Source of the DNA: a virus
Taxonomy: Duplodnaviria > Caudoviricetes
Strand: one strand, 5' to 3'
DNA: 64,000 nucleotides
Virus record (IMG/VR): IMGVR_UViG_3300049734_000263
Span: 850 to 64,849 of that record
Shown here: one piece after another, positions 3,666 to 63,489 of the stretch
How positions within the stretch are numbered: the stretch's first letter is position 1
Layout: each line of letters opens with the position of its first letter
Notes under the pieces: model-generated
Told to the model about the DNA's origin: nothing
Seen by the model: only the letters and a program-made list of their open reading frames with translations
Databases searched by the model: none
Program-made: the position numbers and the translations under genes

Positions 3666-4183
3666 AAACACTTATCGTTGCGCTCTTGTTACTCCTCGCT
3701 GCCGCGCCCGTGCTGGCGCAAGAAACCAGCCCGGCCCCGACGCCCGACAAGAAACTGGCGGAGGACTTCCGAACCTACAAGGCCGAGACGCTCAAAATGC
3801 TCACGCGTCACTTCGAGAAGCATCCCAAATGTGAGTTGCGACGCGTTGCGCCCACGATTGAAGGGATGGCCATTTTTGTCGGGACTCCTGAGCATAACAA
3901 CCGCGCCTGGGCTTACCCGGAAAAGCAGACCCAGGACGCGCATTATCCCGCACGGATGTTCGTCAGTTCCCGGCATAAGTGGGATCTGAAGAAAGCGTGC
4001 GAGACGATCATTCACGAGGCGTTTCACCTGACTGTGGGCGACGACGGCGAGTTTATTTGCGGCCCGGACAGGCTGGACAGATTTCGCCGTGTGTGCGTCG
4101 TGCAAGGCGTGAGCGTGTACAAGACCGCTGACCTTGACAGGGCGATAGAGGAACATCTGGAAAAGTACGGAGCTTGGAAATGA
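3662..4183 (+). CDS. exported protein with HEXXH (zinc metallopeptidase-like) motif
   Basis: Sec signal MKTLIVALLLLLAAAPVLA; IIHEAFH. Confidence 0.6.
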   Translation: MKTLIVALLLLLAAAPVLAQETSPAPTPDKKLAEDFRTYKAETLKMLTRHFEKHPKCELRRVAPTIEGMAIFVGTPEHNNRAWAYPEKQTQDAHYPARMFVSSRHKWDLKKACETIIHEAFHLTVGDDGEFICGPDRLDRFRRVCVVQGVSVYKTADLDRAIEEHLEKYGAWK

Positions 4184-4271
4184 ACGGCTTCACCAAAGAC
4201 CAACTTGCCGTTGTCCGCGCATTCCTCGCGCAGGCGCTCGGGCTCGGCGATTCTTTCATCGGAGTAACGCA

Positions 4272-5189
4272 ATGGCTCAATCATCAATTGAGTGGACCGA
4301 CGTTGTAGATAACATCATTGTCGCTTTGGGCGGCGGATGGTGGTGTCGCCGGATCTCGCCCGGCTGTGACCACTGCTACGCAGAGGGCATCAACCAAAAC
4401 AGTTTCTTCGGCGGCAACGGGATGCCCTATCGCGGCGCGCCGCCAATACTCAGACTGAGACAAGAAGTCATTGACTCTTGGGCGCGCCAGCGAAAGCCGA
4501 AGAAGCATTTTGTCGAGTCAATGAGCGATGTGTTTGGTGAGTGGGTTCCGCGCTGGATGATCTTCCAGTTTCTCGACGGCATGGCCGCCGCGCCGAAACA
4601 GACATTTCAATTATTGACGAAACGGCCCGACGTGATGCTGCGCGAGGTCAGGGCATGGCTGGAGGCGCGCGGCCTGGATTCTTTGCCGCCGAACATCTGG
4701 CCGGGTGTCACGGTCGAAAATCAGGAGTGGGCGGATAAGAGGCGCGCTTCCTTTGAAGCAGTACCGGCGCAAACCAAGTTTGTTTCTTACGAGCCCGCGC
4801 TCGGCCCGGTCAATTGGGGCGGATGGGAATTCGTGAGCCAGATCATCGGCGGCGGCGAGAGCGGGAAGGGCGCGCGGCCGGCGCATCCTGGTTGGTTTCA
4901 CTCGACGCGAGACTGGTGCATAGCAAACCTTAAGGCGTATTTCCATAAGCAACATGGCGAGTTTGCCCACTGGCAAGACATCGCGCGCCATGACTTCCAG
5001 AGACTCACTTGGGTTGAGCCTGATTGGTTCTCCGACAAAATGCCTGGCGTTTGGATCGAGCCTGATGGTCGAACCTCTCAGCGAACCGATAACGATGATG
5101 CTGAGTTTGTCTATCGCGTTGGCAAGGCACGTGCCGGGCGTCTGCTCGACGGTCGCGAGTGGAACGAATTCCCGGAGGTGGTTAAGTGA
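4272..5189 (+). CDS. DUF5131 / phage Gp37-Gp68 family radical-SAM-like protein
   Basis: SIEWTD, C...SPGCDHCYA, SMSD.F, FQLLTKRP, S.EP.LG, GGESG, GRLLDGREW. Confidence 0.9.
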   Translation: MAQSSIEWTDVVDNIIVALGGGWWCRRISPGCDHCYAEGINQNSFFGGNGMPYRGAPPILRLRQEVIDSWARQRKPKKHFVESMSDVFGEWVPRWMIFQFLDGMAAAPKQTFQLLTKRPDVMLREVRAWLEARGLDSLPPNIWPGVTVENQEWADKRRASFEAVPAQTKFVSYEPALGPVNWGGWEFVSQIIGGGESGKGARPAHPGWFHSTRDWCIANLKAYFHKQHGEFAHWQDIARHDFQRLTWVEPDWFSDKMPGVWIEPDGRTSQRTDNDDAEFVYRVGKARAGRLLDGREWNEFPEVVK

Positions 5190-5899
5190 GCGTCAAAGAG
5201 CGGCCGATCTTATACAGGGGCGATATGGTCCGCGCGACCCTGAAAGACTGGAAGACCAACACGCGGCGCCTGAGAGACTTGGAGCAAATCAACCAAGATC
5301 GCGACACTTGGCGCTACGATGGCGTGAACGTGAACGGCTACCATCAGTTCTACGACGTCCATAAGGCTATCTCCGGTCATGATCCGCGGTACTGCATACT
5401 TTTCGTAAAGTGTCCATACGGCAAACCTGGTGATCGCCTCTGGGTGCGCGAGACCTGGCGCACCGTTGAGCGCGAGAGCGATGGACTCGACGGAGTTCTG
5501 TATCGGGCGGACGGCCAATTTCGCGAGATCGAGAATACGAGAGAAGCCGCCGAAAAGTGGATGGCCGCCTACGCCAACGGCAAATGGGGCGACGCCTGGC
5601 GCCCCTCGATTTTGATGCCCCGATGGGCGTCGCGCATCACATTGAAGGTCACAGGTATTCGCGCCGAGCGCCTGCAGAGCATTACCGAAGAGGATGCGAT
5701 TGCTGAAGGGTTGGAGTGTACCGGCGGCGGGCGGTACTGGATGGGCGGTAAGCATCCGGTCAAGGGGACGCCGAAGGTCTTCGGGTTGGCGGCACAGGCT
5801 TTCGCTTCCATCTGGGACGAAATCAATGGCGAGAAAGCGGCCTGGGATTCGAATCCCTGGGTGTGGGTTATTCGGTTTGCTCGCGAGGTCTCTCAATGA
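5186..5899 (+). CDS. ASCH/PUA-like phage protein
   Basis: ERPIL...MVRA.L...KT.TRR, CPYGKPGDRLWVRETW, WRPSI.MPRWASRITL, NPWVWVI.F. Confidence 0.8.
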   Translation: MSVKERPILYRGDMVRATLKDWKTNTRRLRDLEQINQDRDTWRYDGVNVNGYHQFYDVHKAISGHDPRYCILFVKCPYGKPGDRLWVRETWRTVERESDGLDGVLYRADGQFREIENTREAAEKWMAAYANGKWGDAWRPSILMPRWASRITLKVTGIRAERLQSITEEDAIAEGLECTGGGRYWMGGKHPVKGTPKVFGLAAQAFASIWDEINGEKAAWDSNPWVWVIRFAREVSQ

Positions 5900-6147
5900 G
5901 CGTAATGGGTCCGAGGAGCTGCTTCTGCTGCGGCAGAGTAGAGAGCACGACGGGTTGCGTGCGCGGGTTCCGGTGCGACTGCGATCAGGGCTTGGGCCGC
6001 GATTGCAGGGTTTGCCGGTACTGCCTGAATCATTGCGCCTGCACGGATGAGATGAAGAAGGCGGCGCTCGACGCGAAGGTCGAATACTGCAAATCGCTTG
6101 GGCGGATTAGGGAGGCCAATCCCGACCGCATCAACAAGAGATGGTGA
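5896..6147 (+). CDS. small Cys-rich protein
   Basis: multiple CxC/CxxC motifs; start overlaps upstream stop. Confidence 0.5.
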   Translation: MSVMGPRSCFCCGRVESTTGCVRGFRCDCDQGLGRDCRVCRYCLNHCACTDEMKKAALDAKVEYCKSLGRIREANPDRINKRW

Positions 6148-6151
6148 CCAT

Positions 6152-7372
6152 ATGAGAGCAGTAAGCCTATTCGAAGGCGCTCGAATGACGCTCGACCAGG
6201 CGACCGACGTGACGGCCGCGTCACTGAATGTCTATGGCGAACGCTACAAACATTGGGCGATCGCTTTCAGCGGCGGCAAGGATTCGACGGCGACCGTCAC
6301 GGTTGTCGCCGAACTGATCCGGCAGGGAAGAGTCCCGCGTCCGAAATCCCTGACCGTTCTGTACGCCGATACCCGAATGGAGTTGCCACCGCTCCAGATC
6401 GCCGCGATGGAGATCATGAAGATCCTCGCACAGCGCGACATCGAAGCGCGCGTCGTGCTGCCCGAGATGGATGACCGCTTCTTTGTCTATATGTTCGGCC
6501 GTGGAGTCCCGGCTCCAAAAAATAAATTTCGCTGGTGCACTAGCCAGATCAAGGTCGAGCCAATGATCGCCGCAGTGAAATCACTGCGCGAGGTGGCGAG
6601 CGAGAAGCTCTTGATGATCACAGGCGTCAGACTGGGCGAATCGGCCGCGCGTGATCAGCGGATCGTGATGAGTTGCTCGCGGGACGGCGCCGAATGTGGC
6701 CAAGGTTGGTTTCAGCAATCAACGCCCGAATCCGTCGCTGATACGCTCGCGCCGCTTCTTCACTGGCGCGTCTGCCACATCTCCGATTGGCTGGAATTCT
6801 TCGCTCCGGATGCCGGATACCCGACGCTGGATGTCTTGAGCGTCTACCACGTCGGCGAGGAAGGCGACCCGATCGAGATCGCCGGGCGCACTGGTTGCGT
6901 CGGCTGCAACCTGGCCAGCAACGATCACACGCTCGACCGCGTATTGAAGCGGCCACAGTGGGCATATCTAGCGCCGTTCAAGCGATTACGCCCGCTGTAT
7001 GCGGAGTTGACCAAGCCGTTCAACCGGCTGCGCAAGGGAATGGAGACCCGCGCCGACGGCGAGCTGGTGAAGAATCCCGGCCGGCTCGGCCCGCTCACGA
7101 TGGAAGCCAGACGACGCGGCATGCTCGAGGTCTTCAGAATCCAATCCGAGATCAACCGCGCCGCGCGCGAGGAGGGTAGGCCCGAGGTCAGCCTGATCAA
7201 TCCCGACGAAGCAATCCGGATTAACGAGCTAATCTCGGCGAACACTTGGCCAAATCGATGGTCAGGTGAAGAGCAGATCGGCGACGCATTCACGGATCAA
7301 GTAATGAAGGATGGTATTGTGCAGCCGATCATAGCCGGTTTATCGGTCACCCGAGGCGGAAGAAGTTGGTAG
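6152..7372 (+). CDS. PAPS reductase family protein (DndC-like)
   Basis: PP-loop SGGKDS, RWCT..IK..P, GVR..ES..R, RTGC..C, GPLT.EAR. Confidence 0.88.
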   Translation: MRAVSLFEGARMTLDQATDVTAASLNVYGERYKHWAIAFSGGKDSTATVTVVAELIRQGRVPRPKSLTVLYADTRMELPPLQIAAMEIMKILAQRDIEARVVLPEMDDRFFVYMFGRGVPAPKNKFRWCTSQIKVEPMIAAVKSLREVASEKLLMITGVRLGESAARDQRIVMSCSRDGAECGQGWFQQSTPESVADTLAPLLHWRVCHISDWLEFFAPDAGYPTLDVLSVYHVGEEGDPIEIAGRTGCVGCNLASNDHTLDRVLKRPQWAYLAPFKRLRPLYAELTKPFNRLRKGMETRADGELVKNPGRLGPLTMEARRRGMLEVFRIQSEINRAAREEGRPEVSLINPDEAIRINELISANTWPNRWSGEEQIGDAFTDQVMKDGIVQPIIAGLSVTRGGRSW

Positions 7373-7515
7373 AGTGGAATCAATTCCCAGAGGCGGCCAA
7401 ATAAGCGCGATGTGTCCATGTCAACAAAAAGTGAGGCGTTTGCAAAAGTAATCATTATAAGACTTGTTTCATTTGCGCAACATGATGTATATTTTACAAT
7501 ACAAGGAGGCAGATT

Positions 7516-7764
7516 ATGGTCGCAGCGATGAGTGTAATGAATCAAATCGCATCACCTGAAACTTGTTATCTGTGCGGACAGACGGCGCCGCAAAACTTAT
7601 CCGGAGTTCACGATGCTTGCGCCGACAGGGAGAATGCTGGTATTACCATTGATCTCGCCCTCGCAACTGAAATTTGCCGATTATGTGGTCAGCCATCATT
7701 CCCATTTGAAAATCAGGTGCACTCGGAATGTGCCGCCTATGAGAATTTTCTTGCGTCGCGTTAA
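7516..7764 (+). CDS. small protein with two tandem C2HC zinc-finger-like repeats
   Basis: CYLCGQ...VHDAC..EN and CRLCGQ...VHSEC..EN; AAGGAGG RBS; AT-rich upstream region. Confidence 0.65.
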   Translation: MVAAMSVMNQIASPETCYLCGQTAPQNLSGVHDACADRENAGITIDLALATEICRLCGQPSFPFENQVHSECAAYENFLASR

Positions 7765-7818
7765 GTCTGTGATAAATTAGTGGGGTGCCATATTCAGCTG
7801 AAAGAAAGGGGTACCCCG

Positions 7819-8460
7819 ATGACAAATTTACAGCCAAAACTTCCTTATGTTTGGACAACATGGTTATCAAAATTGCTCGCTGGCGACAATTCTTGTGAGT
7901 GGGCAACTTGGTACAAGGTCAATCACGGCAAGGTTGCAACCAGAAACAATGCAGACTTTGACGCTTGGCGAATCAAGCACACGGCGTTATTGCAACGCAC
8001 TCGCAAGGAGCTAGAGGCACAGGAGTGCCGGGTCCTCACTGAAGATCAAAACTGGTTCAGACTGACAGGCGCTAGCGCTGTGTTAGGCGGCAAGCCTGAT
8101 CTGATCAGTATCGGAGAGGAGTGCACGATCTGTGATGTGAAAGCTGGCCAGAAGAGATCGTCCGACCGCATACAAGTGATGATCTATATGTATGCTGTGC
8201 CGCGCGCAATGTCGCAATATAGAGGCGGGCAATTTGATGGCTTAGTCGTCTATGAAGATAGTTGGGAAGTCATTCCTGCCGACGCGATAGACGCCACGTT
8301 TATCGCCAGTCTGGGCTCTCTGATCAAGCGCGTGAGTTCCGAAGCTCCAGCGCGCCGCGTTCCCAGCGTTCGGGAATGTAAGTTCTGCGATATGACGAAA
8401 GAGCTTTGCGACGCCAGAATTGATGGTCAGGAAGCGCAGGGCGAGACAACAGATTTCTAG
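7819..8460 (+). CDS. Cas4/RecB-like PD-(D/E)XK nuclease
   Basis: GKPDL...CDVKAG, Q..IY; N-terminal Cys plus C-terminal CKFC...C (Fe-S pattern). Confidence 0.8.
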   Translation: MTNLQPKLPYVWTTWLSKLLAGDNSCEWATWYKVNHGKVATRNNADFDAWRIKHTALLQRTRKELEAQECRVLTEDQNWFRLTGASAVLGGKPDLISIGEECTICDVKAGQKRSSDRIQVMIYMYAVPRAMSQYRGGQFDGLVVYEDSWEVIPADAIDATFIASLGSLIKRVSSEAPARRVPSVRECKFCDMTKELCDARIDGQEAQGETTDF

Positions 8461-8481
8461 CGCTAGACGAAGGATGGGCTT

Positions 8482-9624
8482 GTGCAGCGAGCAAACGTGG
8501 CTAAGAAGCAGCGGAAGAAGAAATCCACGAAGAAGCGAATGCGCCCGTTGCCTGGGATCGAGCTGGAACAGGTCGTCCTCCATCTCCAGCGGCTGATGGG
8601 ACCGGACGCCAGCGCCGAGCATAATCAGAAGATCATAGACCGGCTCGGCAATGAGCGGCAGATCGATGTTCTAATCCGGGGCAAGTTCGGTGGGTGGCTC
8701 ATGATGGGCGTCATCGAGTGCAAGGACCAATCCCGGAAGAAGGGACTCGATGACATGGAGGCGTTCGCAAAGAAAACCGAACACCTCGGAGCGGGGCTGC
8801 GCCTGATGGTCTCAAAGAAGGGCTTCACGAAGACCGCGCTCAAATTAGCTAAGCACGAGCACATCCACTGCCTGTCGTTGCTACAGCATGACTCTCATAC
8901 GTTTGGCATTGAGATAGGAGAGTGGTGGTACGGTGTCATCAGCCGGTGGACGGACTTCAGGCTGGATGTGACGTGGGCAGACCGCGCACAGAAGCCCGAA
9001 CTGTTAGCTGCTGATGAGGTGCTTTGGCAAGGCAAACCTGTGGTCAATTGGTTCACGAGGGAATTCATCGTCACTTATCGCGACCGCACTCAGGACGGGC
9101 ATCTAACCATCGATGTGCCCTTCGACCAGGTCACAAACCTCGAAATCCAGGGTCAGCATTACCCAGTGATTGCACTCTCGTGCTCAGCAAAAGGTCTCTT
9201 CATAAAGAAGCGCAGATGGGTCACGTACTCCGGTCAGGCGTTCTTCGATTGGCACACGGGCAAGGTGACTATTCCTCCCGAAGTGGAGGTTTACATGAGG
9301 CCGATGGTAGAAGATGTAGTTCTGTGGGATGACTACACCGGCGAGATTCCCGCCATCGAAGATGCGACCAACACGCGGCTCGTGAGAGGGGTGATGGTGC
9401 TGACCCAGTTTATGCCGGCTGACCGCCCAATCCCCGACCTGGAACAACTTAGCTCCGGCCTGCGGAAAGATGAGAGGACAGTAGTACCGCCTGCTCCAAA
9501 GGGTTTCGACCCGAACTCCTCATTCGTGAAGCGGGCAATCGAGGAGGCCGCCAAGTCCAAACCGTCACCGACAGAGTCCGGAAAAAACCCACCCGGAGTG
9601 TGGTCGATCACTGGAAAGAAATGA
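8482..9624 (+). CDS. restriction endonuclease-fold protein (Mrr-cat-like N-terminus)
   Basis: RQIDVLI...IECKD...VSKKGFTK.A...A; start may be 8497 or 8539. Confidence 0.78.
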   Translation: MQRANVAKKQRKKKSTKKRMRPLPGIELEQVVLHLQRLMGPDASAEHNQKIIDRLGNERQIDVLIRGKFGGWLMMGVIECKDQSRKKGLDDMEAFAKKTEHLGAGLRLMVSKKGFTKTALKLAKHEHIHCLSLLQHDSHTFGIEIGEWWYGVISRWTDFRLDVTWADRAQKPELLAADEVLWQGKPVVNWFTREFIVTYRDRTQDGHLTIDVPFDQVTNLEIQGQHYPVIALSCSAKGLFIKKRRWVTYSGQAFFDWHTGKVTIPPEVEVYMRPMVEDVVLWDDYTGEIPAIEDATNTRLVRGVMVLTQFMPADRPIPDLEQLSSGLRKDERTVVPPAPKGFDPNSSFVKRAIEEAAKSKPSPTESGKNPPGVWSITGKK

Positions 9625-9861
9625 CCGGCTGCCCGTTCCATTTTATTCTGCCCGCAGGCGGCGGTATTCACATAAACTCGATACTCACATTTATAAGTCA
9701 CATCAACGCCCGACAAATCACCCTGAAAATGCTTAGGTTTTCGCATTCACATAAATGATCGCCTCCGCGCCGCTGTTGACTATTTTGTTTATCGGGAATG
9801 ACGTTTTATTAAACTGTAAGGCTCTTATAGTAAAGTAAAAGGCAAAAAACCCGAGGGTTTC

Positions 9862-9905
<44 letters not shown>

Positions 9906-9919
9906 TGATCAGGAAAAAG

Positions 9920-9952
9920 ATAAGCCCGATAGAATCATTCTATCGGGCTTAT
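9920..9952. terminator. perfect inverted repeat between att core and int stop (terminator-like)
   Basis: ATAAGCCCGATAGAAT-C-ATTCTATCGGGCTTAT. Confidence 0.7.
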
Positions 9953-9983
9953 TCACATCTACGGCTCACAATTACTGAAGCGC

Positions 9984-11153
9984 TCACTCTCCTTGCCGGC
10001 CGTTGTCTGAGATCGGCGCCGTGACGCCCTGTCCATACATTTCCGACATCGCCTTAGCCGCCTGAGCGAGCATCTCATCGTCAGGGTTGAAATAGCGCAT
10101 AAACGTTTTGATCTGGGTGTGGCCGGATTCCTTCATCACGATGTGCCAGGGGAGTCCGGCCTTAACCACGGCTTTGAGGCGCCGTGTTATCCCGGTGTGT
10201 CTGAGGTCATGGATCCTGACATCCTCAAGCCCGGCCTTTTCGCAGACCGTCCCCCAACTGGTTTTCACGGACCCAACTTCGAAGACCTTCGCGTCGGCCG
10301 GCCGGTGCTCGGTCAGCCTTACGAGTTCGTCGTAGGCCCTCTGCGTCAGGCCGATCTCGCGACTGCGCTCGGTCTTCGTGGTCGTCCAGCGGACGCGCAC
10401 GACACGGCTATCGAAGTCTATGTCGGATTTGACGAGGCTGAATAGCTCGCCGCTCCGCATAAAGGTATCAATGCCGATCACGATCACTGACCGCAGATGC
10501 GACCGCTTGGCCCCGACGCACTGCGCCAGGATCTTGGCTTCCTGCTCGGGGCTCAGGATCGTCATTCGCTCGGTTTCATCTGACTTGTTGATGAGTCCCT
10601 TCGCCAGGATGAAGGGGTTCTTGAGGACCCATCCGTGGCCGTGCGCGTAGCGGAAAATGGAGCGCAGGAGTTCAAGCTCCCGGTTCACCGAGGCGACCGC
10701 ATAAGTCTTCTCAGGGTTCCGCAGGGTGGGAGTCTTGAGGCGGATGTTCTTGTACCGCCTGATCTCTTTCGCGCTGATCTTGCGAATCGGCTTTTTACCG
10801 AAATGCTCGATCAGCCTTTCGAGCCAGATCGCGGGGCTGTTAGTGTTTTTCAGGCCCGCGATTTTACGCCCGCCGACGATCTCGGCCGCCTGCATATGCT
10901 CTTTCTCGTATTCTCGCGCGGCGCGCTCGAAGGTCATCTTCGAGGCCTCGATGGTCTCCTGGATCGCTTCTTTGCCGCCGGCGGAGAATTCGTTCTCAAG
11001 CTCGCGAATAACCTTGGGGAGGTCGGTCAGCTTGTTGGAGAGCACACGGCGTTCTTTGAATTTTTGCTCACCCGTCCGCTCGTCTTTGTAGCTGATGACG
11101 GCGAATAGATTTCCCTGGCGCCAGCGCCTTGACCCTGTTCTTGGCCGTCCCAC
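9984..11153 (-). CDS. int: tyrosine recombinase (phage integrase)
   Basis: catalytic R (TFMRSGEL), K (TKT), HDLRH, GH, Y (MRYFN). Confidence 0.95.
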   Translation of the reverse strand: MGRPRTGSRRWRQGNLFAVISYKDERTGEQKFKERRVLSNKLTDLPKVIRELENEFSAGGKEAIQETIEASKMTFERAAREYEKEHMQAAEIVGGRKIAGLKNTNSPAIWLERLIEHFGKKPIRKISAKEIRRYKNIRLKTPTLRNPEKTYAVASVNRELELLRSIFRYAHGHGWVLKNPFILAKGLINKSDETERMTILSPEQEAKILAQCVGAKRSHLRSVIVIGIDTFMRSGELFSLVKSDIDFDSRVVRVRWTTTKTERSREIGLTQRAYDELVRLTEHRPADAKVFEVGSVKTSWGTVCEKAGLEDVRIHDLRHTGITRRLKAVVKAGLPWHIVMKESGHTQIKTFMRYFNPDDEMLAQAAKAMSEMYGQGVTAPISDNGRQGE

Positions 11154-11165
11154 GTCGCCCTCCTT

Positions 11166-11456
11166 TCAGTAATCGCGCCAGGAGCGGATGATCTTGCCGA
11201 GCAACGTCTCAGCCGGTGGAGCCTTGGATGAGTATTCAATGATGGCCACTCCATCTTCGTTGGTGGCGACCACGATCAAATCACCGTCCTTGATCTTAGC
11301 GAATTGTTTTTTTAGGACTGCGGCGAAATCGCCTGGCAGGATGCCGCGTTTGATGAACCTGTCAGTCACGATCCGCAACCCGATGAGTTGATTCGCCGCG
11401 TACTGCGAGGGCCATGTCGCGGCGAAGAATCCCGTCAAGGGGATCAGCTTGGGCAT
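11166..11456 (-). CDS. LexA/S24 C-terminal-domain-like protein lacking catalytic residues and DNA-binding domain
   Basis: IPLTGFFAATWP, LRIVTDRFIKRGILPGD, DGDLIVV, LLGKIIRSWR align by eye to the LexA CTD. Confidence 0.6.
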   Translation of the reverse strand: MPKLIPLTGFFAATWPSQYAANQLIGLRIVTDRFIKRGILPGDFAAVLKKQFAKIKDGDLIVVATNEDGVAIIEYSSKAPPAETLLGKIIRSWRDY

Positions 11457-11715
11457 AGTTTCTCCTTGATCGGTGTGACCACGGACGACAACGGCGCATC
11501 ATTGAACAATAGCGAGTGGGGTTCCTGTACGTGGTGGCAAGCGAATAAGCGCGCTGCTGCGAGGCCCTGCGGCGAGGCGACGAAACCTACTTCCAGCCAG
11601 TCAAAGAAATCGAACTATTGAATGATTAAAAAGAGCGATCCGGTCAGCCGAAGCCACACCTCGGTTGTGAGGTAACATGGTCGGGGCGTTAGGGGGTACA
11701 ACGAAATCAACAGTG

Positions 11716-12363
11716 CTAAATACTTTTTTTTCTGGGTAGCTGTCTGACTGAACGTTTCTTCGCGTGCTGGTCTGCGTTGTCTCTTGTGAAAGGGATCTCC
11801 CCTCTCCCTTCCTCCTCCAACGGTATAATAACCGCGTCGGTCTTGCGAATCTCCTTCAACCTCTCAATGTTTATGTTGACGTCGGCGGACCCGAAGTACG
11901 CAATGAGCAACGCCTCCAGGAATTGTGGCCACGCTCGTTTGACGCGCTTGGATTCATCGTCGACCATCCGCCAAAGAGAAGAAGGCAGCGCGACTTCTCG
12001 CTTTTCCATGCTGGCTTTCTCGATCTCCACGACGCCGTTGACGACATCCCACAGTTCCTGTTCGGAGACTTCGAATGCCTTCGCCAGTCCCTGTACGGTT
12101 CTAGCGTCCACGGTATCGTATCGCTTATTGGCGACATTCGCCGCAGTGCCCTGAGACACGAGGGCGCCTGAGCGCCGGGCGATCTCCGGATAACTCCAAC
12201 CTGAAGCGCGCTTCTTCAGGTTTAACCACTCTGCCAACCGATCAATTTGTCGAAGGTTTTTCGCTGACACGTCAGCCCTTATAGCAAACTGTTTGCTATA
12301 AGGGCTGAAAGTTTCTAGTATTTTGCTCGTTGACTTTATAGCAACCTTTTTTGTAATATTCAT
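11716..12363 (-). CDS. CI-like XRE HTH repressor without peptidase domain
   Basis: WSYPEIARRSG..VSQGT...GLAKAFEVSEQEL HTH; divergent from cro-like gene; true start possibly GTG near 12270. Confidence 0.75.
   Translation of the reverse strand: MNITKKVAIKSTSKILETFSPYSKQFAIRADVSAKNLRQIDRLAEWLNLKKRASGWSYPEIARRSGALVSQGTAANVANKRYDTVDARTVQGLAKAFEVSEQELWDVVNGVVEIEKASMEKREVALPSSLWRMVDDESKRVKRAWPQFLEALLIAYFGSADVNINIERLKEIRKTDAVIIPLEEEGRGEIPFTRDNADQHAKKRSVRQLPRKKSI
12272..12308. promoter_or_regulatory. 37-bp perfect palindrome (operator) in the immunity region
   Basis: TCAGCCCTTATAGCAAAC-T-GTTTGCTATAAGGGCTGA. Confidence 0.75.
12330..12359 (+). promoter_or_regulatory. putative PR-like promoter
   Basis: TTGACT-18-TAATAT upstream of cro-like gene, overlapping a TTTATAGCAA operator half-site. 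Confidence 0.5.
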
Positions 12364-12386
12364 TTTGCTAAAAGGAGAGCAATTCT

Positions 12387-12671
12387 ATGGAACAAACGAC
12401 GACCGATCAACCAACGATATATCCAGGAAAGCAACTTCAACTCCTCAAAGACTTCTACCGGCTTAGAGTTAAAGACATCGCACAGCGGTCGCAGACAGGA
12501 TCGAACACCGTCAACGACGCGCTGCAAGGGCGAGGGTCAGTAGACTTGCGAAAATTTGCCGCCATCGCGGACGTGCTCAATGCGGACGTAATCGTCATCC
12601 TGAAGCCGCGTGACCCGCACTTCATAAGGCATGTCGAGGCGATGCTCCCGACTGTTCCGGCTATCCAGTGA
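12387..12671 (+). CDS. Cro-like XRE HTH protein
   Basis: VKDIAQRSQTGSNTVNDAL.G...AAIADVLN; AAGGAG RBS. Confidence 0.75.
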   Translation: MEQTTTDQPTIYPGKQLQLLKDFYRLRVKDIAQRSQTGSNTVNDALQGRGSVDLRKFAAIADVLNADVIVILKPRDPHFIRHVEAMLPTVPAIQ

Positions 12672-12786
12672 ACCCAATGAGGCGCGAGGAATTGCGCCGA
12701 TAGGAATCTACCGCGTCGAAGCGTCGCCGTGGAATGATTTTTTTCAAGAAAAATTGTCATCGCTTTGACAGCGACTGTCATCGCGC

Positions 12787-13263
12787 ATGACACCTTGGAT
12801 CAATCGCAGCTCTCCCCTGGGCCAGCCGATGACAAGTTACGAAGTGCTCGAAATAATTTTTAGGGGCAAGGTGAAACGCTTGGCGGCGGCGTTCGGAATC
12901 AAGGAAACGTCGGCGGCCAAGTTTTTGCGCGATCCGCACAACAGCGGGGCGTTCAATCCGCTCGACCGGCTCCAAAAGGTGATTGACGAAGCTGTCCTGG
13001 CCAACCGCGCGCAGTCATACCTGATCCCCGAATACCTTCGCCAGTATCACCAACGACTCATCAATGACCAGCAACGCGGCGTCAAATGGGACCCGAAGCA
13101 GGTCGCCGCCGAGATCTTGCAGACCGCGGCGCGCGCGGTGCAGGCGCTCGCGCTCGAAACTCACCCGCCCTCCGAGCAGCTTCAGGCGTTGCTTGAAGCG
13201 AGAAACATCCTTGATGAGGCGATCTCGCAACTGGAGATCCTGAACGGCGACGAGGGGCGTTAA
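12787..13263 (+). CDS. CII-like phage regulatory protein
   Basis: position after cro; N-terminal HTH-like region, NPLDRL motif, helical C-terminus. Confidence 0.5.
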   Translation: MTPWINRSSPLGQPMTSYEVLEIIFRGKVKRLAAAFGIKETSAAKFLRDPHNSGAFNPLDRLQKVIDEAVLANRAQSYLIPEYLRQYHQRLINDQQRGVKWDPKQVAAEILQTAARAVQALALETHPPSEQLQALLEARNILDEAISQLEILNGDEGR

Positions 13264-13277
13264 AGAAAGGAAACCCG

Positions 13278-13682
13278 ATGGTCATCAAAGCCAATAAGGA
13301 AAGAGTATTCATCAACCTCGACGAATTGGACGCGATCTGGTCGGACGACTACCGACGCGACCACTACAACGTCGGGGTCGGGGCCCAAAGCTTTGAGGTG
13401 TCCCGCGAGGTCGCCGACGCGATCTTCGCCGACCTGGAGAAGCGCGAGAGCGAACTCGACCACATCCGCGAAATGAGCGAAACGGTCGGCCAGTGGGTCG
13501 GCCGGGCCACGAAGGCGGAGTACGACGTCATCGAGTTGCACAAGGCGCTCGGCGATGTCCTCGCGCGTTGGTCGTCAGACACTAGTGGTAAGGCCAACGC
13601 TACACAACTTTATCAACAGGCAAAGGATCTTCTTAAGGCCGAAGAATCGCCTGCTGATCCGCCCAAGCAAGTTACTTCTTAA
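13278..13682 (+). CDS. hypothetical protein
   Basis: ORF with AAGGA RBS in early operon. Confidence 0.6.
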   Translation: MVIKANKERVFINLDELDAIWSDDYRRDHYNVGVGAQSFEVSREVADAIFADLEKRESELDHIREMSETVGQWVGRATKAEYDVIELHKALGDVLARWSSDTSGKANATQLYQQAKDLLKAEESPADPPKQVTS

Positions 13683-13706
13683 TCCAACCGAAAGGAGTCA
13701 CGCTCT

Positions 13707-14048
13707 ATGGAGCAACTACGACTCAGCCTCGCAACCATTGGTGACGGCGGCGCTCTCGAACTCTTCGATGTGGCGTTGCAAGAGGTCCTGGCCAACATCC
13801 AGGACCCGAACACGCCCGCCGACGCGGAGCGCAGCATCACTCTGACCGTAAAAATCAAACCCGACAAGTCGCACGACCTCGGGCGTCTCAAATACAAAGT
13901 CGTTCCCAAACTCGCGCCGATCGCGGAGCAGGAAGGCCGCGTCTTTCTGCCGCAACAGCCTGACGCCGCTGGCAACTACTACGCGACGGAGCACAACCCG
14001 AAACAGCCAAACCTGGCGTTTCACGAAACGGAGGTAACTCGTGCCTGA
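13707..14048 (+). CDS. conserved phage protein (often annotated 'replication terminator protein'; YfdP-like partner)
   Basis: GGALELFD.AL.EVL.NI.DPNT.A...RSITL; coupled to next gene. Confidence 0.7.
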   Translation: MEQLRLSLATIGDGGALELFDVALQEVLANIQDPNTPADAERSITLTVKIKPDKSHDLGRLKYKVVPKLAPIAEQEGRVFLPQQPDAAGNYYATEHNPKQPNLAFHETEVTRA

Positions 14049-14805
14049 GAACAACATCAGCGTCTCGATGATCGGCGACAGCGTGGTCGCCGCGATCAAG
14101 GATAGCGTGAAGACCGAGACTATTGAGGTGGACGGTCGGCTCTTCACGACTCGGTCGGTCTTCCAGCCGCCAACGGAACTCGCTCCGGACGTTCTTATCG
14201 TCCACACCCTCACCGGCCTTGTGGATTATGTGAACAACATCGCGAGGATCGATCCTGAAGCCGCCGACAAGATCAAGTGCGTGCACGTATTCGGCCCGGA
14301 CAGGATAGATGTCTGCGGCGCCCTGCGTGGACGCCACAATCAGCGCTACGTCTATTTAAGCGCCCGCTACAATGCCCCAAGTAACGGGATCGGATTCCAC
14401 TTCGGCCAGTTCTGCGATCCGGAGACCTTCACGATCGCGCTGCAATCGCTCTTCGACGATTCGGGCGACGTCGCGAAGGTGCTCAGACTGGTCGGCAATA
14501 TGCGGTCGGAGCAGATCAGGACGTCGGAAGATGACGGCGTCACGCAGGTCGTAGGCACGAAAGCGGGCATCGTGATGAAGGCTCAGAGCGATGTCCCGAA
14601 CCCGGTGATACTGGCGCCGTACAGGACCTTCAACGAGGTCGAGCAACCGCACAGCGCATACATCTTCAGGGTGAGAGAGAACGGCGACAAACCGCCCCTG
14701 TGCGCCCTGTTTTGCGCTGACGGCGACGCGTGGAAGCTGGCGGCGATCGAGCGAATCAAACAATACCTGGCCGAGAAGATCACCGGGATTCCGATCATCG
14801 CGTGA
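14041..14805 (+). CDS. conserved phage protein (YfdQ/DUF2303-like partner)
   Basis: TLTGLVDY, DDGVTQ.V, VPNPV.LAPYRTF.EVEQP, ADG.AWK. Confidence 0.7.
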   Translation: MPENNISVSMIGDSVVAAIKDSVKTETIEVDGRLFTTRSVFQPPTELAPDVLIVHTLTGLVDYVNNIARIDPEAADKIKCVHVFGPDRIDVCGALRGRHNQRYVYLSARYNAPSNGIGFHFGQFCDPETFTIALQSLFDDSGDVAKVLRLVGNMRSEQIRTSEDDGVTQVVGTKAGIVMKAQSDVPNPVILAPYRTFNEVEQPHSAYIFRVRENGDKPPLCALFCADGDAWKLAAIERIKQYLAEKITGIPIIA

Positions 14806-14836
14806 TCAATCGGCGCTCCTTTTTTTTGGCCCTTGG

Positions 14837-14875
14837 CTTATAGCAAAGTGTAAAGAACTTATAGCGATAGGCCGG
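14837..14875. promoter_or_regulatory. tandem CTTATAGC operator sites upstream of replication gene
   Basis: CTTATA at 14837 and 14858 (21-bp spacing). Confidence 0.55.
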
Positions 14876-14919
14876 GGGCGGCTATTCAGCGACCACGGAC
14901 TTAGAGGCACGGTGGCTTA

Positions 14920-15990
14920 ATGATCGTCCGCGCGGCGCACGATAAAGACAATCCGTTTTTTCAGATGCTGAGAGCTACGGCCCAAGATACGAAATTGCCA
15001 GCGCGCGCCCTCGGCGTGCTGGCCTATCTATTGTCCAAACCGGACAGTTGGGAGCCGACGATTGATGACATCTGCCGTCGCTTCTCGGACGTGGGCCGAG
15101 ATCAGGCCTACAAGATCATCACTGAGGTTTTCATTCCCCTTCGGTACGCTCGCCGGACGCAGGAACGAACAGACGGGAAGTTTGCGCGCTGGCTGACAGA
15201 GGTTCACGAATCGCCATTTCCTGAAAATCAGGGAGTGACAACGCCAGATACTGACCAACCGGATACGGAAAATCAGGAAATGGCTTCACAATCCAAGGGT
15301 CGTAAACCAAAGAAAAGCAAGAACGTAACACCATTTCCTGAAAATCAGGAAGCGGCTTCACCATTTCCTGATTTGCCGGATACGGAAAAACCGGATACGG
15401 AAAATCAGGAGCTATATAAAAAGAGAAAGTACAAATTACAGAGAAAAGATATTACAGAGGGAAACACATTTGGCGCGCCAATGGGAGTGGTTGAGCCGGT
15501 CGAAGAGAGAACCGCTGAACTGAAGCCGAAGAAGTCTTCAGGTAAGAAATCGCCGCTCAAAAGCCAGTTCCACAATCACCCTTCAGTAGTCGCCTATCGA
15601 GAGACCCTTGGTTTTTACACCCTGAATGCGGCGCAGGCGGACTTGATCGCCGAGGCGACCGGAACGCAGGTTGAGTCCGCGCCGCCTGAATGGCTGAAGT
15701 TCTTGCGCGAACTGGCGGAAAGCGGAAACAAGTACGCGCATAACGTGCGGGTGATGGTTTGGGCTTTCGAGCGCTACGGCGCCGGTTCCTGTTTGTCCGA
15801 GGCCCTCGACGCGGCCTGGGCTCGCGAGAAAGGGCGATCCGCAGCAAGCAACGGGAACGGGACCTATCGCAACCGCGGGCGGCCTACTCTGGCCGAACGC
15901 AATCAGGCGGCGGCGGATGAAGCCGCCCGATTGCTGGGGATTTCTTCGGAGCAGGGCGACGTAATTGACATTGAGGCAACGCGATTATGA
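14920..15990 (+). CDS. phage replication initiator (lambda O-like organisation)
   Basis: N-terminal wHTH (D..L..RALGVLAYLLSKPDSW), internal DNA repeats, followed by loader-like gene. Confidence 0.8.
   Translation: MIVRAAHDKDNPFFQMLRATAQDTKLPARALGVLAYLLSKPDSWEPTIDDICRRFSDVGRDQAYKIITEVFIPLRYARRTQERTDGKFARWLTEVHESPFPENQGVTTPDTDQPDTENQEMASQSKGRKPKKSKNVTPFPENQEAASPFPDLPDTEKPDTENQELYKKRKYKLQRKDITEGNTFGAPMGVVEPVEERTAELKPKKSSGKKSPLKSQFHNHPSVVAYRETLGFYTLNAAQADLIAEATGTQVESAPPEWLKFLRELAESGNKYAHNVRVMVWAFERYGAGSCLSEALDAAWAREKGRSAASNGNGTYRNRGRPTLAERNQAAADEAARLLGISSEQGDVIDIEATRL
15214..15460. repeat. iteron cluster plus A-rich tract: probable replication origin
   Basis: CCATTTCCTGA at 15214, 15331, 15361; CCGGATACGGAAAA at 15259, 15376, 15391; A-rich 15413-15460. 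Confidence 0.75.
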
Positions 15991-63076: not shown

Positions 63077-63259
63077 TTACAGCTTCTTCAGTTCTCCGTC
63101 GAACCACTTTCGGCAAAGCGCGCAGAACCAAAGCAGCGGATCGCGTTGCTGGAGGTCGAGCGGCGTCGAGCACGCATGGCAAATCAGACTGCGCCACTCT
63201 TCAAATAATAGGTCTGCAGGCGTGGGCGGTTTCGGCGATGGCGTGGAGTTGTCGGTCAT
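63077..63259 (-). CDS. small zinc-ribbon protein
   Basis: CHAC...CALC; coupled to upstream HTH gene. Confidence 0.5.
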   Translation of the reverse strand: MTDNSTPSPKPPTPADLLFEEWRSLICHACSTPLDLQQRDPLLWFCALCRKWFDGELKKL

Positions 63260-63489
63260 TGATCGGCTCTTTTCTTCGCCGGCTTAGGCTTCGCTGGCCT
63301 TCCTCTCGGCCGCACTTTGAAGCCCTTCAGGTCGCGCGCCGGGATGAGCCACATCGGCCCGCGCCCTGTCTCTTCACGCCGCGCGTTTGGGAAGCGCGGC
63401 GGGTCCTTGAGCAACCACACGCGCACGGTCCCTTGGGGCACACCCAGACGCTCGGCCACTTCTCTTGTCGTCAGTTCTTTCGGTTTCAT
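63256..63489 (-). CDS. MerR/excisionase-like HTH protein
   Basis: LTTREVAERLGV...TVR.W...W.IP..DL; C-terminal RGRP. Confidence 0.75.
   Translation of the reverse strand: MKPKELTTREVAERLGVPQGTVRVWLLKDPPRFPNARREETGRGPMWLIPARDLKGFKVRPRGRPAKPKPAKKRADQ

What the first reader, a model, noticed from the sequence alone, without database searches (positions are those of the whole stretch)
11166..11456. Stand-alone, catalytically dead LexA C-terminal-domain mimic between cI and integrase
Seen: the 96-aa protein follows the LexA/UmuD S24 pattern along its length (IPLTGFFAATWP vs IPLVGRVAAGxP; LRIVTDRF..RGILPGD vs LRVxGDSM..AGIxDGD; DGDLIVV; LLGKIIR). The Ala-Gly scissile bond, catalytic Ser and catalytic Lys all appear substituted, and there is no HTH. 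The adjacent CI has no peptidase domain. Known: the LexA CTD mediates dimerisation and binding to activated RecA. Inference: expressed in the lysogeny operon, it could heterodimerise with host LexA or occupy RecA filaments to tune SOS and induction, or act as a detached sensor for the non-cleavable repressor.
Basis: partly seen in the sequence, partly recalled or inferred. Interest (0 to 1): 0.7.

Follow-up and report, generated by a model that had tools for sequence, protein, structure and literature searches.

The report
Dead LexA-like domain beside phage repressor
A temperate soil phage encodes, between its repressor and integrase genes, a small conserved protein that has the fold of the LexA self-cleaving domain but none of its catalytic residues, and it probably works as a detached partner of the phage repressor rather than as a protease.

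Summary
Window 11166-11456 (-) is a real 96-aa gene with a strong ribosome-binding site, and dN/dS against a 71%-identical relative is about 0.09. Sequence signals to S24/LexA are weak but consistent. The AlphaFold model (pLDDT 87.9) matches LexA, lambda CI and UmuD' C-terminal domains (VIA Z 10.1, 9.7, 9.6). The next unrelated fold scores Z 2.8.

In all 21 family members found, every one 95-101 aa and stand-alone, the catalytic positions are not kept:
- LexA Ser119 position: Ser in 0 of 21.
- Lys156 position: Lys in 1 of 21.
- Gly85 position: Gly in 0 of 21.

So the whole family is non-catalytic, not a decaying copy.

The neighbouring CI is an XRE helix-turn-helix protein without a peptidase domain. 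It ends in a disordered tail that is as conserved as its HTH. The tail has the PL-x8-P spacing of LexA's cleavage-site region. Where context is known or inferred (7 loci), the small protein sits beside tail-bearing CI. Seven tail-less CI variants show no sign of it. A predicted complex of the protein with the tail gave only weak support.

Best reading (about 0.35): a trans-acting, non-catalytic C-terminal domain or sensor for CI. Binding to RecA* or to host LexA was not tested. Novelty: new variant of a known kind.

The parts
11166..11456 (-). ORF96: stand-alone 96-aa protein with the S24/LexA C-terminal-domain fold and no catalytic dyad. Its N-terminus PLTGFFAATWP has the PL-x8-P spacing of LexA's cleavage-site region.
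11716..12270 (-). CI-like repressor, 184 aa from GTG 12270, which is the gene caller's start and is preceded by AAGGG. The open frame runs on to ATG 12363. It has an XRE HTH domain (residues 1-88), a helical middle part and a disordered C-terminal tail. It has no peptidase domain.
11716..11838 (-). Codons for the CI C-terminal tail, residues 145-184: motif DAVIIPLEEEGRGEIPFTRD followed by a basic end. AF2 gives pLDDT <50, yet the motif is as conserved as the HTH. This is the proposed docking motif for ORF96.
11457..11715 (-). 259-nt spacer between cI and ORF96. The first ~50 nt after the cI stop are conserved with L002. About 190 nt are extra relative to L002, where the spacer is 68 nt. It holds a weak terminator-like hairpin at 11652-11639 and no sigma-70-like site.
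9984..11153 (-). Tyrosine integrase (389 aa). It starts 12 nt after the ORF96 stop and has its own AAGGAGG.
9867..9904 (+). Probable attP core: reads as the 3' end of a tRNA gene (T-arm plus acceptor strand). Many unrelated soil contigs match only these 38 nt.
12272..12308 (.). Operator-like perfect palindrome (18+18 nt, 1 nt between) in the cI-cro intergenic region, with partial copies at 12336-12351 and 12361-12375.
12387..12671 (+). Cro-like HTH protein (94 aa), divergent from cI.
63256..63489 (-). 77-aa excisionase-type HTH_17 protein. This is a conventional candidate for the recombination directionality factor, which weakens the RDF reading of ORF96.

Best explanation
ORF96 is a non-catalytic, minimal S24-fold protein: a LexA / lambda-CI C-terminal-domain body without Ser, Lys or an Ala-Gly bond. 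I propose that it acts in trans as the missing C-terminal domain of the phage's CI repressor.

Shown here:
- the fold;
- loss of the catalytic dyad across the whole family;
- purifying selection;
- its fixed place cI-ORF96-int in the two loci whose DNA I could read;
- a CI that ends in a disordered but highly conserved tail.

Inferred:
- The groove that in LexA holds its own cleavage-site region binds the CI tail (DAVIIPL-x8-PFT, with LexA-like PL-x8-P spacing) as an uncleavable pseudo-substrate.
- Since S24 domains dimerise, ORF96 would then link CI dimers, or control their stability or activity.
- More speculative: ORF96 keeps residues compatible with the RecA*-contact pocket and acidic patch of LexA. 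Activated RecA could therefore draw it off CI after DNA damage, giving induction without self-cleavage.

The gene order repressor - accessory protein - integrase parallels ImmR-ImmA-Int of ICEBs1 (order recalled from memory), with an S24 pseudo-peptidase in place of the metalloprotease.
For: Fold and dead active site.

Real, selected gene: 20 homologs of 95-101 aa, none found fused. dN/dS is 0.09 against L002, similar to CI at 0.11 and Int at 0.10 (dS ~2, saturated).

Synteny: cro | cI - ORF - int in the window and in L002.

Two forms of CI among 20 homologs: 13 carry the tail and 7 end before it, with several different short endings.

Co-occurrence:
- The ORF96 homolog and the CI homolog lie on one contig in the window and L002 (seen as DNA).
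- All 7 of these have tail-bearing CI.
- None of the 20 ORF96 homologs has the contig length of any of the 7 tail-less CI (13463, 13251, 4473, 2945, 1728, 1660, 1473 bases).
- On a tree of the shared CI part, tail and no-tail forms interleave (3 changes; starred branches force only 1).

Tail conservation:
- Mean majority fraction 0.85 over residues 145-163, against 0.87 for the HTH.
- dN/dS 0.06 over 19 codons.
- AF2 pLDDT <50, so disordered on its own.

Motif: PL-x8-P occurs in 13 of 13 tails, 0 of 7 short CI and 14 of 21 ORF96 N-termini. It is also in E. coli LexA, P77-P87, around the Ala84-Gly85 site.

Predicted complex of ORF96 with CI residues 128-184, verdict weak support:
- Score 0.43, best of 3 controls 0.00.
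- The mark was reached by 58 of 80 solved complexes and 2 of 110 mismatched pairs. At 0.60 or under it was reached by only 7 of those 80 and by both mismatches that passed, so such a pass is more often wrong than right unless the guess was likely beforehand.
- The runs agree in at least 68% of contacts, and the partner's pLDDT is at least 45.

No other induction device was found in the phage: no PF00717, Peptidase_M78/ImmA, ANT or Bro-N match.

RecA* contacts of LexA are F111, L113, V153 and D150-D152 (PMC9926225, passages read). They align with I25, L27, V70 and E67, D68, G69. The three hydrophobic positions stay aliphatic in 21 of 21 members, and the turn holds at least one acidic residue in 18 of 21.
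Against: No direct evidence of binding. The complex score is in the range where passes are more often wrong than right.

Co-occurrence rests on only 2 loci seen as DNA. For the other 5 it rests on equal contig lengths. The contigs of the tail-less CI could not be fetched, so 'absent there' is inferred. The gene could lie beyond a contig end or be too diverged to find.

Linked genes are co-inherited, so co-occurrence alone does not prove interaction.

In the window, ORF96 is tightly coupled to int (12 nt) and is separated from cI by 259 nt with a weak terminator-like hairpin. This fits an int-operon gene as well.

The aliphatic 'pocket' residues are core beta-strand residues of any S24 fold. 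The acidic turn is missing in 3 of 21 members.

The PL-x8-P resemblance was noticed after the fact.

No LexA-box-like motif (consensus forms recalled from memory) lies near the gene.

The contexts of the more distant family members (P0011-13, P0018, P0043-46) are unknown.
Confidence: 0.35

Rival explanations
1. Host-directed SOS modulator. ORF96 acts on the host, not on CI. As an uncleavable LexA-CTD look-alike it sits in the RecA* groove, or forms mixed dimers with host LexA. That would damp or tune SOS and the induction of this or competing prophages.
For: S24 fold with LexA as best match. Residues aligned with LexA's RecA* contacts are of compatible type. A cleavage-site-region-like N-terminus without a cleavable bond is kept in 14 of 21 members. 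LexA, UmuD, lambda CI and DinI all use the same RecA groove (PMC9926225, passages read).
Against: It does not explain why the gene goes with the tail-bearing form of CI. ORF96 lacks about 15 residues between the cleavage-site-like segment and the core, and about 25 residues before the last strand, relative to E. coli LexA. Parts of the LexA surface are therefore missing. The host, its LexA and its RecA are unknown, so nothing could be tested.
Confidence: 0.15
2. Integrase accessory factor. ORF96 is made with Int and helps or directs recombination (RDF-like or an Int chaperone), sitting where lambda has xis.
For: The stop lies 12 nt before the int start, on the same strand, and attP lies just beyond int. 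The same ORF-int junction occurs in L002. The protein is mildly basic (pI 9.6). An unrelated environmental phage with a 31.5%-identical integrase also has a small ORF overlapping the int start, though hhalign finds no similarity to ORF96.
Against: The fold is a beta S24 body, not a winged-helix or HTH type known for RDFs of tyrosine integrases (recalled). The phage has a conventional excisionase-type HTH_17 ORF at 63256-63489 (E 2.5e-6, 24.3 bits, just under the 27-bit cut-off). This reading does not explain the link with the CI tail.
Confidence: 0.12
3. UmuD'-like (HumD-like) translesion-synthesis accessory that works with a host Y-family polymerase.
For: UmuD' is among the best structural matches (Z 9.6; Foldseek rank 4). 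A phage-encoded, pre-processed UmuD' analogue is known in P1 (HumD, recalled).
Against: No Y-family polymerase in the phage: only a 16.6-bit, sub-threshold PF00817 match on a 134-aa ORF. UmuD' keeps the Ser/Lys dyad (recalled), and this family does not. Its place in the immunity module and its association with the CI tail are unexplained.
Confidence: 0.04
4. Functionless relic of a split HTH-S24 repressor, or a lysogeny-module passenger with some unrelated role (for example exclusion or defence).
For: Both the CI tail and the ORF96 N-terminus look like cleavage-site regions, as a split with duplication could leave. No function has been shown. The ESM Atlas and BFVD list other small stand-alone S24-like proteins in viruses, all uncharacterised.
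Against: Against a relic: dN/dS is 0.09. 11 columns are invariant across 21 sequences down to 27% identity, including a family-specific C-terminal RxWRDY. Length is constant at 95-101 aa. Against defence: no PHROG hit at E<=1; PADLOC was not searched.
Confidence: 0.2

Closest known systems
LexA C-terminal (S24 peptidase) domain
   Same: Same beta fold (VIA Z 10.1, rmsd 2.9, 82 aligned; Foldseek E 5.7e-4). Shared sequence motifs around GD...GD and the last strand G-x-I-I-R. An N-terminal PL-x8-P segment like the cleavage-site region.
   Different: No Ser119 or Lys156 equivalents (0 of 21 and 1 of 21) and no Ala-Gly bond. No DNA-binding domain. About 40 residues shorter than the E. coli CTD. Below the Pfam and NCBIfam cut-offs.
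Lambda CI C-terminal domain (and 434 / P22-type repressors)
   Same: Same fold (Z 9.7, rmsd 1.9, 75 aligned). Encoded in a phage immunity module. In lambda this domain gives dimerisation, cooperativity and RecA* sensing to the repressor.
   Different: Here the domain is a separate gene product lying downstream of an HTH-only CI, and it cannot self-cleave.
UmuD' / phage P1 HumD
   Same: Stand-alone S24 body without a DNA-binding domain (Z 9.6). A phage-encoded example exists (HumD, recalled).
   Different: UmuD' keeps the catalytic dyad and pairs with UmuC (recalled). There is no Y-family polymerase here, and the gene sits in the immunity module.
ImmR-ImmA-Int module of ICEBs1 and related phages (also DdrO/IrrE)
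   Same: Works-like analogy: an HTH repressor that cannot cleave itself, followed by a separately encoded accessory protein that decides its fate, followed by the integrase. The gene order is recalled. The ImmR/ImmA tandem is named in the abstract of PMC8960796, seen in the listing.
   Different: ImmA is a Zn metalloprotease (Peptidase_M78). ORF96 has an S24 fold with no recognisable catalytic residues, and no M78 match exists in the phage.
Non-catalytic members of the LexA/signal-peptidase fold: phage 186 CI C-terminal domain, S. pyogenes SipA, Raf1 C-terminal domain
   Same: Precedents for this fold serving as a pure protein-protein assembly module. They appear in the structural hit list at Z 6.4 (2fkd), 7.3 (4n31) and 6.5-6.6 (6kkn, 6lrr).
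   Different: All score lower than LexA, lambda CI and UmuD'. None is a stand-alone 96-aa protein of an immunity module. No sequence relation was detected.

Membership tests
Peptidase S24 (LexA/UmuD/lambda CI; Pfam PF00717) | Sequence match above the curated cut-off | tested here: not met
   PF00717 15.9 bits against cut-off 23.3. 5 of 15 members hit at E<=1. TIGR00498 20.6 bits against cut-off 110.95.
Peptidase S24 (LexA/UmuD/lambda CI; Pfam PF00717) | LexA/signal-peptidase beta fold | tested here: met
   VIA Z 10.1, 9.7 and 9.6 to LexA, lambda CI CTD and UmuD', then a gap down to Z 2.8. The first 24 listed Foldseek rows (ranks 1-34) are all S24 proteins. The test was made on a predicted model, pLDDT 87.9.
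Peptidase S24 (LexA/UmuD/lambda CI; Pfam PF00717) | Ser nucleophile (LexA Ser119) | tested here: not met
   Aligned position is R33. Across the family: R 13, K 3, N 1, E 4, so Ser in 0 of 21.
Peptidase S24 (LexA/UmuD/lambda CI; Pfam PF00717) | Lys general base (LexA Lys156) | tested here: not met
   Aligned position is I73. The column is variable, with Lys in 1 of 21.
Peptidase S24 (LexA/UmuD/lambda CI; Pfam PF00717) | Ala-Gly (or Cys-Gly) scissile bond in a cleavage-site region | tested here: not met
   By the PL-x8-P register with E. coli LexA, A84-G85 corresponds to A13-T14. Ala in 17 of 21, Gly in 0 of 21. This N-terminal register comes from motif spacing, not from a scored alignment.
Peptidase S24 (LexA/UmuD/lambda CI; Pfam PF00717) | RecA*-stimulated self-cleavage | not testable with these tools
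   Needs biochemistry.
UmuD'/HumD translesion accessory | Partner Y-family polymerase (UmuC-like) encoded alongside | tested here: not met
   Only a sub-threshold PF00817 match (16.6 bits against cut-off 23.2) on a 134-aa ORF in the phage. The host genome is unknown.
Recombination directionality factor (excisionase) | Small DNA-binding protein of winged-helix/HTH type next to int | tested here: not met
   The position next to int is met. The fold is an S24 beta body. A separate HTH_17 ORF lies at 63256-63489. RDFs are diverse, so this lowers the reading but does not exclude it.
ImmA/IrrE-type anti-repressor protease (Peptidase_M78) | M78 metalloprotease domain | tested here: not met
   No PF06114 match in the phage at E<=0.1. 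ORF96 has an S24 fold.
Phage 186 CI C-terminal domain | Structural and sequence relation to the 186 CI CTD | tested here: inconclusive
   VIA Z 6.4 to 2fkd_A (rmsd 3.2, 70 aligned), below the S24 matches. The Pfam scan of ORF96 at E<=1 lists only PF00717.

The most novel reading that the evidence does not exclude
A protease-free SOS switch built from a split repressor. The CI keeps only a cleavage-site-like tail. A separately encoded, catalytically dead S24 body clamps that tail to give CI its dimer-of-dimers cooperativity. Activated RecA filaments then compete for the dead S24 body through the LexA-type pocket and acidic patch. DNA damage would induce the prophage by titration rather than by cleavage.
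Probability: 0.12. Interest if true: 0.85.

Novelty: new variant of a known kind. Interest (0 to 1): 0.55.

Why it matters
Prophage induction is usually explained in three ways: self-cleaving S24 repressors, separate antirepressors, or ImmA-type proteases. A stand-alone S24 body that has lost every catalytic feature, is conserved under purifying selection, and travels with a repressor carrying a cleavage-site-like tail would be a fourth arrangement. In it, the sensing or oligomerising domain is a separate subunit.

If the link to CI and RecA* holds, it would show how the S24 module can signal without proteolysis. It would also give a small, tractable pair (a 96-aa protein plus a ~20-aa peptide) for studying how S24 grooves recognise cleavage-site regions.

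If the link does not hold, the family remains a clean example of a pseudo-peptidase in phage immunity modules. The practical limits are that the family is tiny (21 sequences found), known only from metagenomes, and has no known host.

Tried and rejected
Context searches that found nothing further:
- No relative of ORF96 or CI in IMG/VR viral contigs or in GTDB genome contigs, and none of the integrase in viral contigs. One relative, L002, in JGI metagenome contigs.
- tblastn against 50,697 phage records: no match for ORF96 or CI. Only E 0.2-1 chance-level hits for the distant members P0045 and P0043.
- PHROGs: no family for ORF96 at E<=1.
- phmmer of ORF96 against PDB sequences: nothing at E<=10.

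Large repeat proteins P0014, P0015 and P0017 (E 7e-9 to 1e-4, 5-7 stretches, 23-25% identity). P0015, the one I read, is a repeat protein that I judge from memory to look like a Gram-positive surface protein. P0014 and P0017 were not read. I set all three aside as summed weak matches of repeats and left them out of all alignments. P0016 (181 aa) looks like a mis-called frame that runs into a truncated homolog at a contig end; I also left it out.

The 105-aa ORF before the integrase of phage MW202444.1 is not related to ORF96 (hhalign probability 0.4%).

LexA-box-like motifs: nine consensus forms recalled from memory give no hit between 9500 and 13500. The host is unknown, so this says little.

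Rfam: nothing at E<=1 in 9500-12900.

Signal-peptide reading of the N-terminus: rejected by eye, because several members have charged residues inside the short hydrophobic stretch.

An alternative Thr31/Lys49 dyad was considered. Thr/Ser is present in 19 of 21 and Lys in 21 of 21. By the LexA register, however, K49 aligns with K135 at the far end of the hairpin from the active site (inference, not measured on coordinates).

RNA evidence: the one RNA-library run laid (X10) gave a single 239-nt contig on 12012-12250, inside cI. It gave no cover of ORF96 or int. Contigs from an RNA library do not prove transcription, and missing cover proves nothing.

Supplements of PMC9926225 (conservation figures for the RecA contacts) were not seen.
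Full report
WHAT IS THERE

The window is 64,000 of the 64,849 bases of an IMG/VR virus record that CheckV rates 100% complete.

On the minus strand, the region reads in this order:
- A tRNA-3'-end-like attP core at 9867-9904.
- A hairpin terminator at 9952-9920.
- A tyrosine integrase at 9984-11153 (PF00589 E 6e-17; phrog_1 E 4e-53).
- ORF96 at 11166-11456.
- A 259-nt spacer.
- A CI-like HTH repressor at 11716-12270.

The operator-bearing cI-cro region follows, with a perfect 18+18 palindrome at 12272-12308. Then comes a divergent Cro-like gene at 12387-12671.

ORF96 has AAGGAG 5 nt before its ATG. Its stop lies 12 nt before the integrase GTG, which has its own AAGGAGG.

Sequence signals to S24/LexA are weak one by one, but they all point the same way:
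- Pfam Peptidase_S24: E 0.011, 15.9 bits, under the 23.3 cut-off.
- NCBIfam lexA: E 2.6e-4.
- 5 of 15 family members touch PF00717 at E<=1.
- A family profile against all PDB sequences gives 14 hits at E<=10, of which 13 are LexA (E 0.17-0.92).
- hhalign of the 21-sequence profile against E. coli LexA gives E 8.5e-4 in the same register.

The fold settles it. The AlphaFold model from a 15-sequence alignment has pLDDT 87.9. In Foldseek against PDB, the first 24 listed rows (ranks 1-34) are all LexA, UmuD/UmuD' or lambda CI chains (best E 5.7e-4, TMq 0.57).

An exhaustive VIA-align run over 48,161 chains gives:
- Z 10.1 for M. tuberculosis LexA C-domain (rmsd 2.9, 82 aligned).
- Z 9.7 for lambda CI CTD (rmsd 1.9, 75 aligned).
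- Z 9.6 for UmuD'.
- 16 rows of the LexA/signal-peptidase fold at Z>=5.5.
- Then a drop to Z 2.8.

The ESM Atlas's own model gives the same answer (TM 0.72-0.80 to LexA clusters).

THE CATALYTIC RESIDUES ARE GONE IN THE WHOLE FAMILY

I found 20 homologs. All are 95-101 aa, and identity goes down to 27%. They were aligned with ORF96.

In the register:
- Ser119 aligns with R33. The column holds R 13, K 3, N 1, E 4, so Ser in 0 of 21.
- Lys156 aligns with I73. The column is variable, with Lys in 1 of 21.

By the PL-x8-P spacing shared with E. coli LexA P77-P87, Ala84-Gly85 corresponds to A13-T14. Ala is present in 17 of 21 and Gly in 0 of 21.

The homologs do not retain Ser/Lys, so ORF96 is not a decaying copy.

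It is a selected gene:
- dN/dS against the 71%-identical copy in L002 is 0.09. CI gives 0.11 and Int 0.10. dS is about 2 and saturated, so these ratios are rough.
- Eleven columns are invariant across all 21 sequences, among them K49 and the family-specific C-terminal R-x-W-R-D-Y.

An exhaustive phmmer search of 1.84 billion representatives found no fused form. Three large repeat proteins and one apparent mis-call in that list were set aside (see Tried and rejected).

Relative to E. coli LexA, the protein is a minimal core. It lacks about 15 residues between the cleavage-site-like segment and the first core strand. It also lacks about 25 residues before the last strand.

THE NEIGHBOURING CI

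Pfam sees only HTH_3 and HTH_31. The AF2 model (pLDDT 70) is helical up to residue 145 and below pLDDT 50 from 145 to 184. Residues 1-88 match XRE-family HTH chains at Z up to 11.1. No S24 match exists anywhere in the phage at E<=0.001, so the statement that CI has no peptidase domain holds.

Among 20 CI homologs:
- 13 end in a tail DAVIIPL-x8-PFT(K/R)(E/D)...KKRSVKPLSKR.
- 7 stop just before it, with several different short endings.

The tail motif (residues 145-163) is as conserved as the HTH. Its mean majority fraction is 0.85, against 0.87 for the HTH. Its dN/dS is 0.06 over 19 codons. A segment that is disordered on its own yet this conserved is typical of a docking motif.

The motif carries PL-x8-P in 13 of 13 tails and in 0 of 7 short forms. 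E. coli LexA has the same spacing around its cleavage site. So do 14 of 21 ORF96 N-termini.

THE LINK BETWEEN ORF96 AND THE TAIL

DNA context could be read in two loci only: the window, and L002, a 5,097-base metagenome contig. Both show cro | cI(tail) - ORF96 homolog - int.

For five further pairs, the ORF96 homolog and a tail-bearing CI have the same longest-contig length (1773, 6538, 4065, 5641, 2264 bases). I take that to mean the same contig.

None of the 20 ORF96 homologs has the contig length of any tail-less CI (13463, 13251, 4473, 2945, 1728, 1660, 1473 bases). This is indirect, because I could not fetch those contigs.

On a tree of the shared CI part, the two forms interleave. The tree needs 3 changes, although starred branches force only 1. 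That pattern suggests that tail plus ORF96 is exchanged as a module.

A predicted complex of ORF96 with CI residues 128-184 gave 'weak support':
- Score 0.43, best of 3 controls 0.00.
- The mark was reached by 58 of 80 solved complexes and 2 of 110 mismatched pairs.
- At 0.60 or under it was reached by only 7 of those 80 and by both mismatches that passed.
- Such a pass is therefore more often wrong than right unless the guess was likely beforehand.
- The runs agree in at least 68% of contacts, and the partner's pLDDT is at least 45.

The phage has no other recognisable induction device. There is no Peptidase_M78/ImmA, ANT or Bro-N match.

RecA*

Gao et al. (PMC9926225; passages read) report two sets of contacts. 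RecA L2 residue F203 enters a LexA pocket formed by F111, L113 and V153. LexA D150, D151 and E152 face a basic patch of RecA. UmuD and lambda CI have equivalent contacts.

In ORF96 these positions align with I25, L27 and V70, and with E67, D68 and G69. The three hydrophobic positions stay aliphatic in 21 of 21 members. The turn has at least one acidic residue in 18 of 21.

This is permissive, not evidence. The aliphatic residues belong to the core of any S24 fold.

EXPRESSION

In L002 only 68 nt separate cI from the gene, which suggests a cI-ORF-int transcript.

In the window the spacer is 259 nt. Its first ~50 nt are conserved with L002 and about 190 nt are extra. It holds a weak terminator-like hairpin and no sigma-70-like site.

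Near-identical DNA occurs in several soil-metagenome runs. One of them, X3, covers 8000-15000 without a difference in three contigs. One contig from an RNA library lies inside cI at 12012-12250, which does not prove transcription.

MOST LIKELY MECHANISM

Shown:
- A conserved, non-catalytic S24 body.
- Its fixed place between an HTH-only CI and Int.
- A CI tail that is conserved, disordered and cleavage-site-like.

Inferred:
- ORF96 binds that tail in the groove that S24 proteins use for their own cleavage-site region.
- ORF96 dimerises, as S24 domains do.
- It thereby supplies in trans the functions that lambda CI's C-terminal domain supplies in cis.

More speculative: RecA* competes for ORF96 and so couples DNA damage to derepression without cleavage.

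I give the CI-partner reading about 0.35, and the RecA* titration version about 0.12.

Rivals:
- A host-directed SOS modulator (0.15).
- An integrase accessory factor (0.12). This is weakened by the S24 fold and by a conventional HTH_17 excisionase-type ORF at 63256-63489.
- A UmuD'-like accessory (0.04; no Y-family polymerase).
- A relic or an unrelated passenger (0.2; the relic part is contradicted by selection).

COMPARISON WITH WHAT IS KNOWN

By fold, ORF96 belongs to the LexA/signal-peptidase superfamily and is nearest to S24. It fails the defining catalytic features and the curated sequence cut-offs, so I do not file it as an S24 peptidase. It is a pseudo-peptidase relative.

Non-catalytic uses of this fold as an assembly module are known: 186 CI CTD, SipA and the Raf1 C-domain. 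All three appear lower.

Functionally, the nearest analogy is ImmR-ImmA-Int. That is a repressor which cannot cleave itself, a separately encoded protein that decides its fate, and then the integrase. The gene order is recalled from memory. The ImmR/ImmA tandem itself is named in the abstract of PMC8960796, seen in the listing.

Other small stand-alone S24-like proteins exist in viruses, all uncharacterised:
- ESM Atlas clusters of 83-117 aa.
- BFVD entries of 73-141 aa.

So the stand-alone format is catalogued at the fold level.

Four full-text searches found no paper describing a catalytically dead stand-alone S24 protein in a phage immunity module. Only listings and abstracts were seen, and subscription journals are largely outside the library.

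VERDICT

Novelty: new variant of a known kind. Interest: 0.55.

Noticed in passing
window 9867-9904 (+), with 9660-9980 around it: Probable attP. The 38 nt read as the 3' end of a tRNA gene (T-arm GCACG/TTCGAGT/CGTGC plus acceptor strand). Many unrelated soil contigs match only this piece, with summed depth 80-145 against ~9 for the phage in X3. Direct repeats ATTCACATAAA (9666, 9745) and a 19-nt pair (9698, 9953) flank it and may be Int arm sites. ARAGORN finds no whole tRNA in the window.
   Followed up: partly
window 12272-12308, 12336-12351, 12361-12375: Operator-like perfect palindrome TCAGCCCTTATAGCAAAC / GTTTGCTATAAGGGCTGA with two partial copies between cI and cro. The longer cI frame from ATG 12363 would overlap them, so the 184-aa start at GTG 12270 (preceded by AAGGG) is the more likely one.
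   Followed up: partly
window 11660-11715 (-) and L002 4067-4120: About 50 nt directly after the cI stop (GTACCCCCTA..GCCCC ... CCTCACA) are conserved between two phages whose synonymous sites are otherwise saturated. The window then has about 190 extra nt before the ORF96 ribosome-binding site. The function of the conserved piece is unknown, and Rfam finds nothing.
   Followed up: partly
window 63256-63489 (-): 77-aa ORF with an excisionase-type HTH_17 match (E 2.5e-6, 24.3 bits, just under the 27-bit cut-off) and a basic tail. A likely Xis/RDF or small regulator, far from int on the linear record.
   Followed up: partly
window 1548-9624 (+): Accessory block ahead of attP: a 705-aa ORF that I judged by eye to look like a cytosine-C5 DNA methyltransferase (1548-3665; no family search run); a PAPS-reductase/DndC-like protein (6098-7372, phrog_12882 E 3e-142); a PD-(D/E)XK nuclease (7780-8460); and an Mrr-type restriction endonuclease domain protein (8482-9624). 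Possibly DNA modification and defence cargo.
   Followed up: partly
CI residues 91-127 (window about 11890-12000, -): The middle part of CI (REVALPSSLWRMVDDESKRVKRAWPQFLEALLIAYFG) looks like a ribbon-helix-helix unit by pattern: a strand followed by two helices. Only the two helices are modelled (H97-109, H114-126), and no Pfam hit was found. An HTH plus RHH repressor would be unusual.
   Followed up: no
window 10989 and 13939 (run X7): One soil contig (depth 4.5) joins 13939 to 10989 with 30 unrelated letters between, at the 85% likeness setting. It could be a relative with a different immunity region, or an assembly chimera (table 5c).
   Followed up: no
L003 (MW202444.1) 3209-5149: An unrelated environmental phage with a 31.5%-identical integrase has the order: omega/RHH-like regulator, 105-aa unknown ORF overlapping the int start, integrase. 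The 105-aa protein shows no similarity to ORF96.
   Followed up: yes
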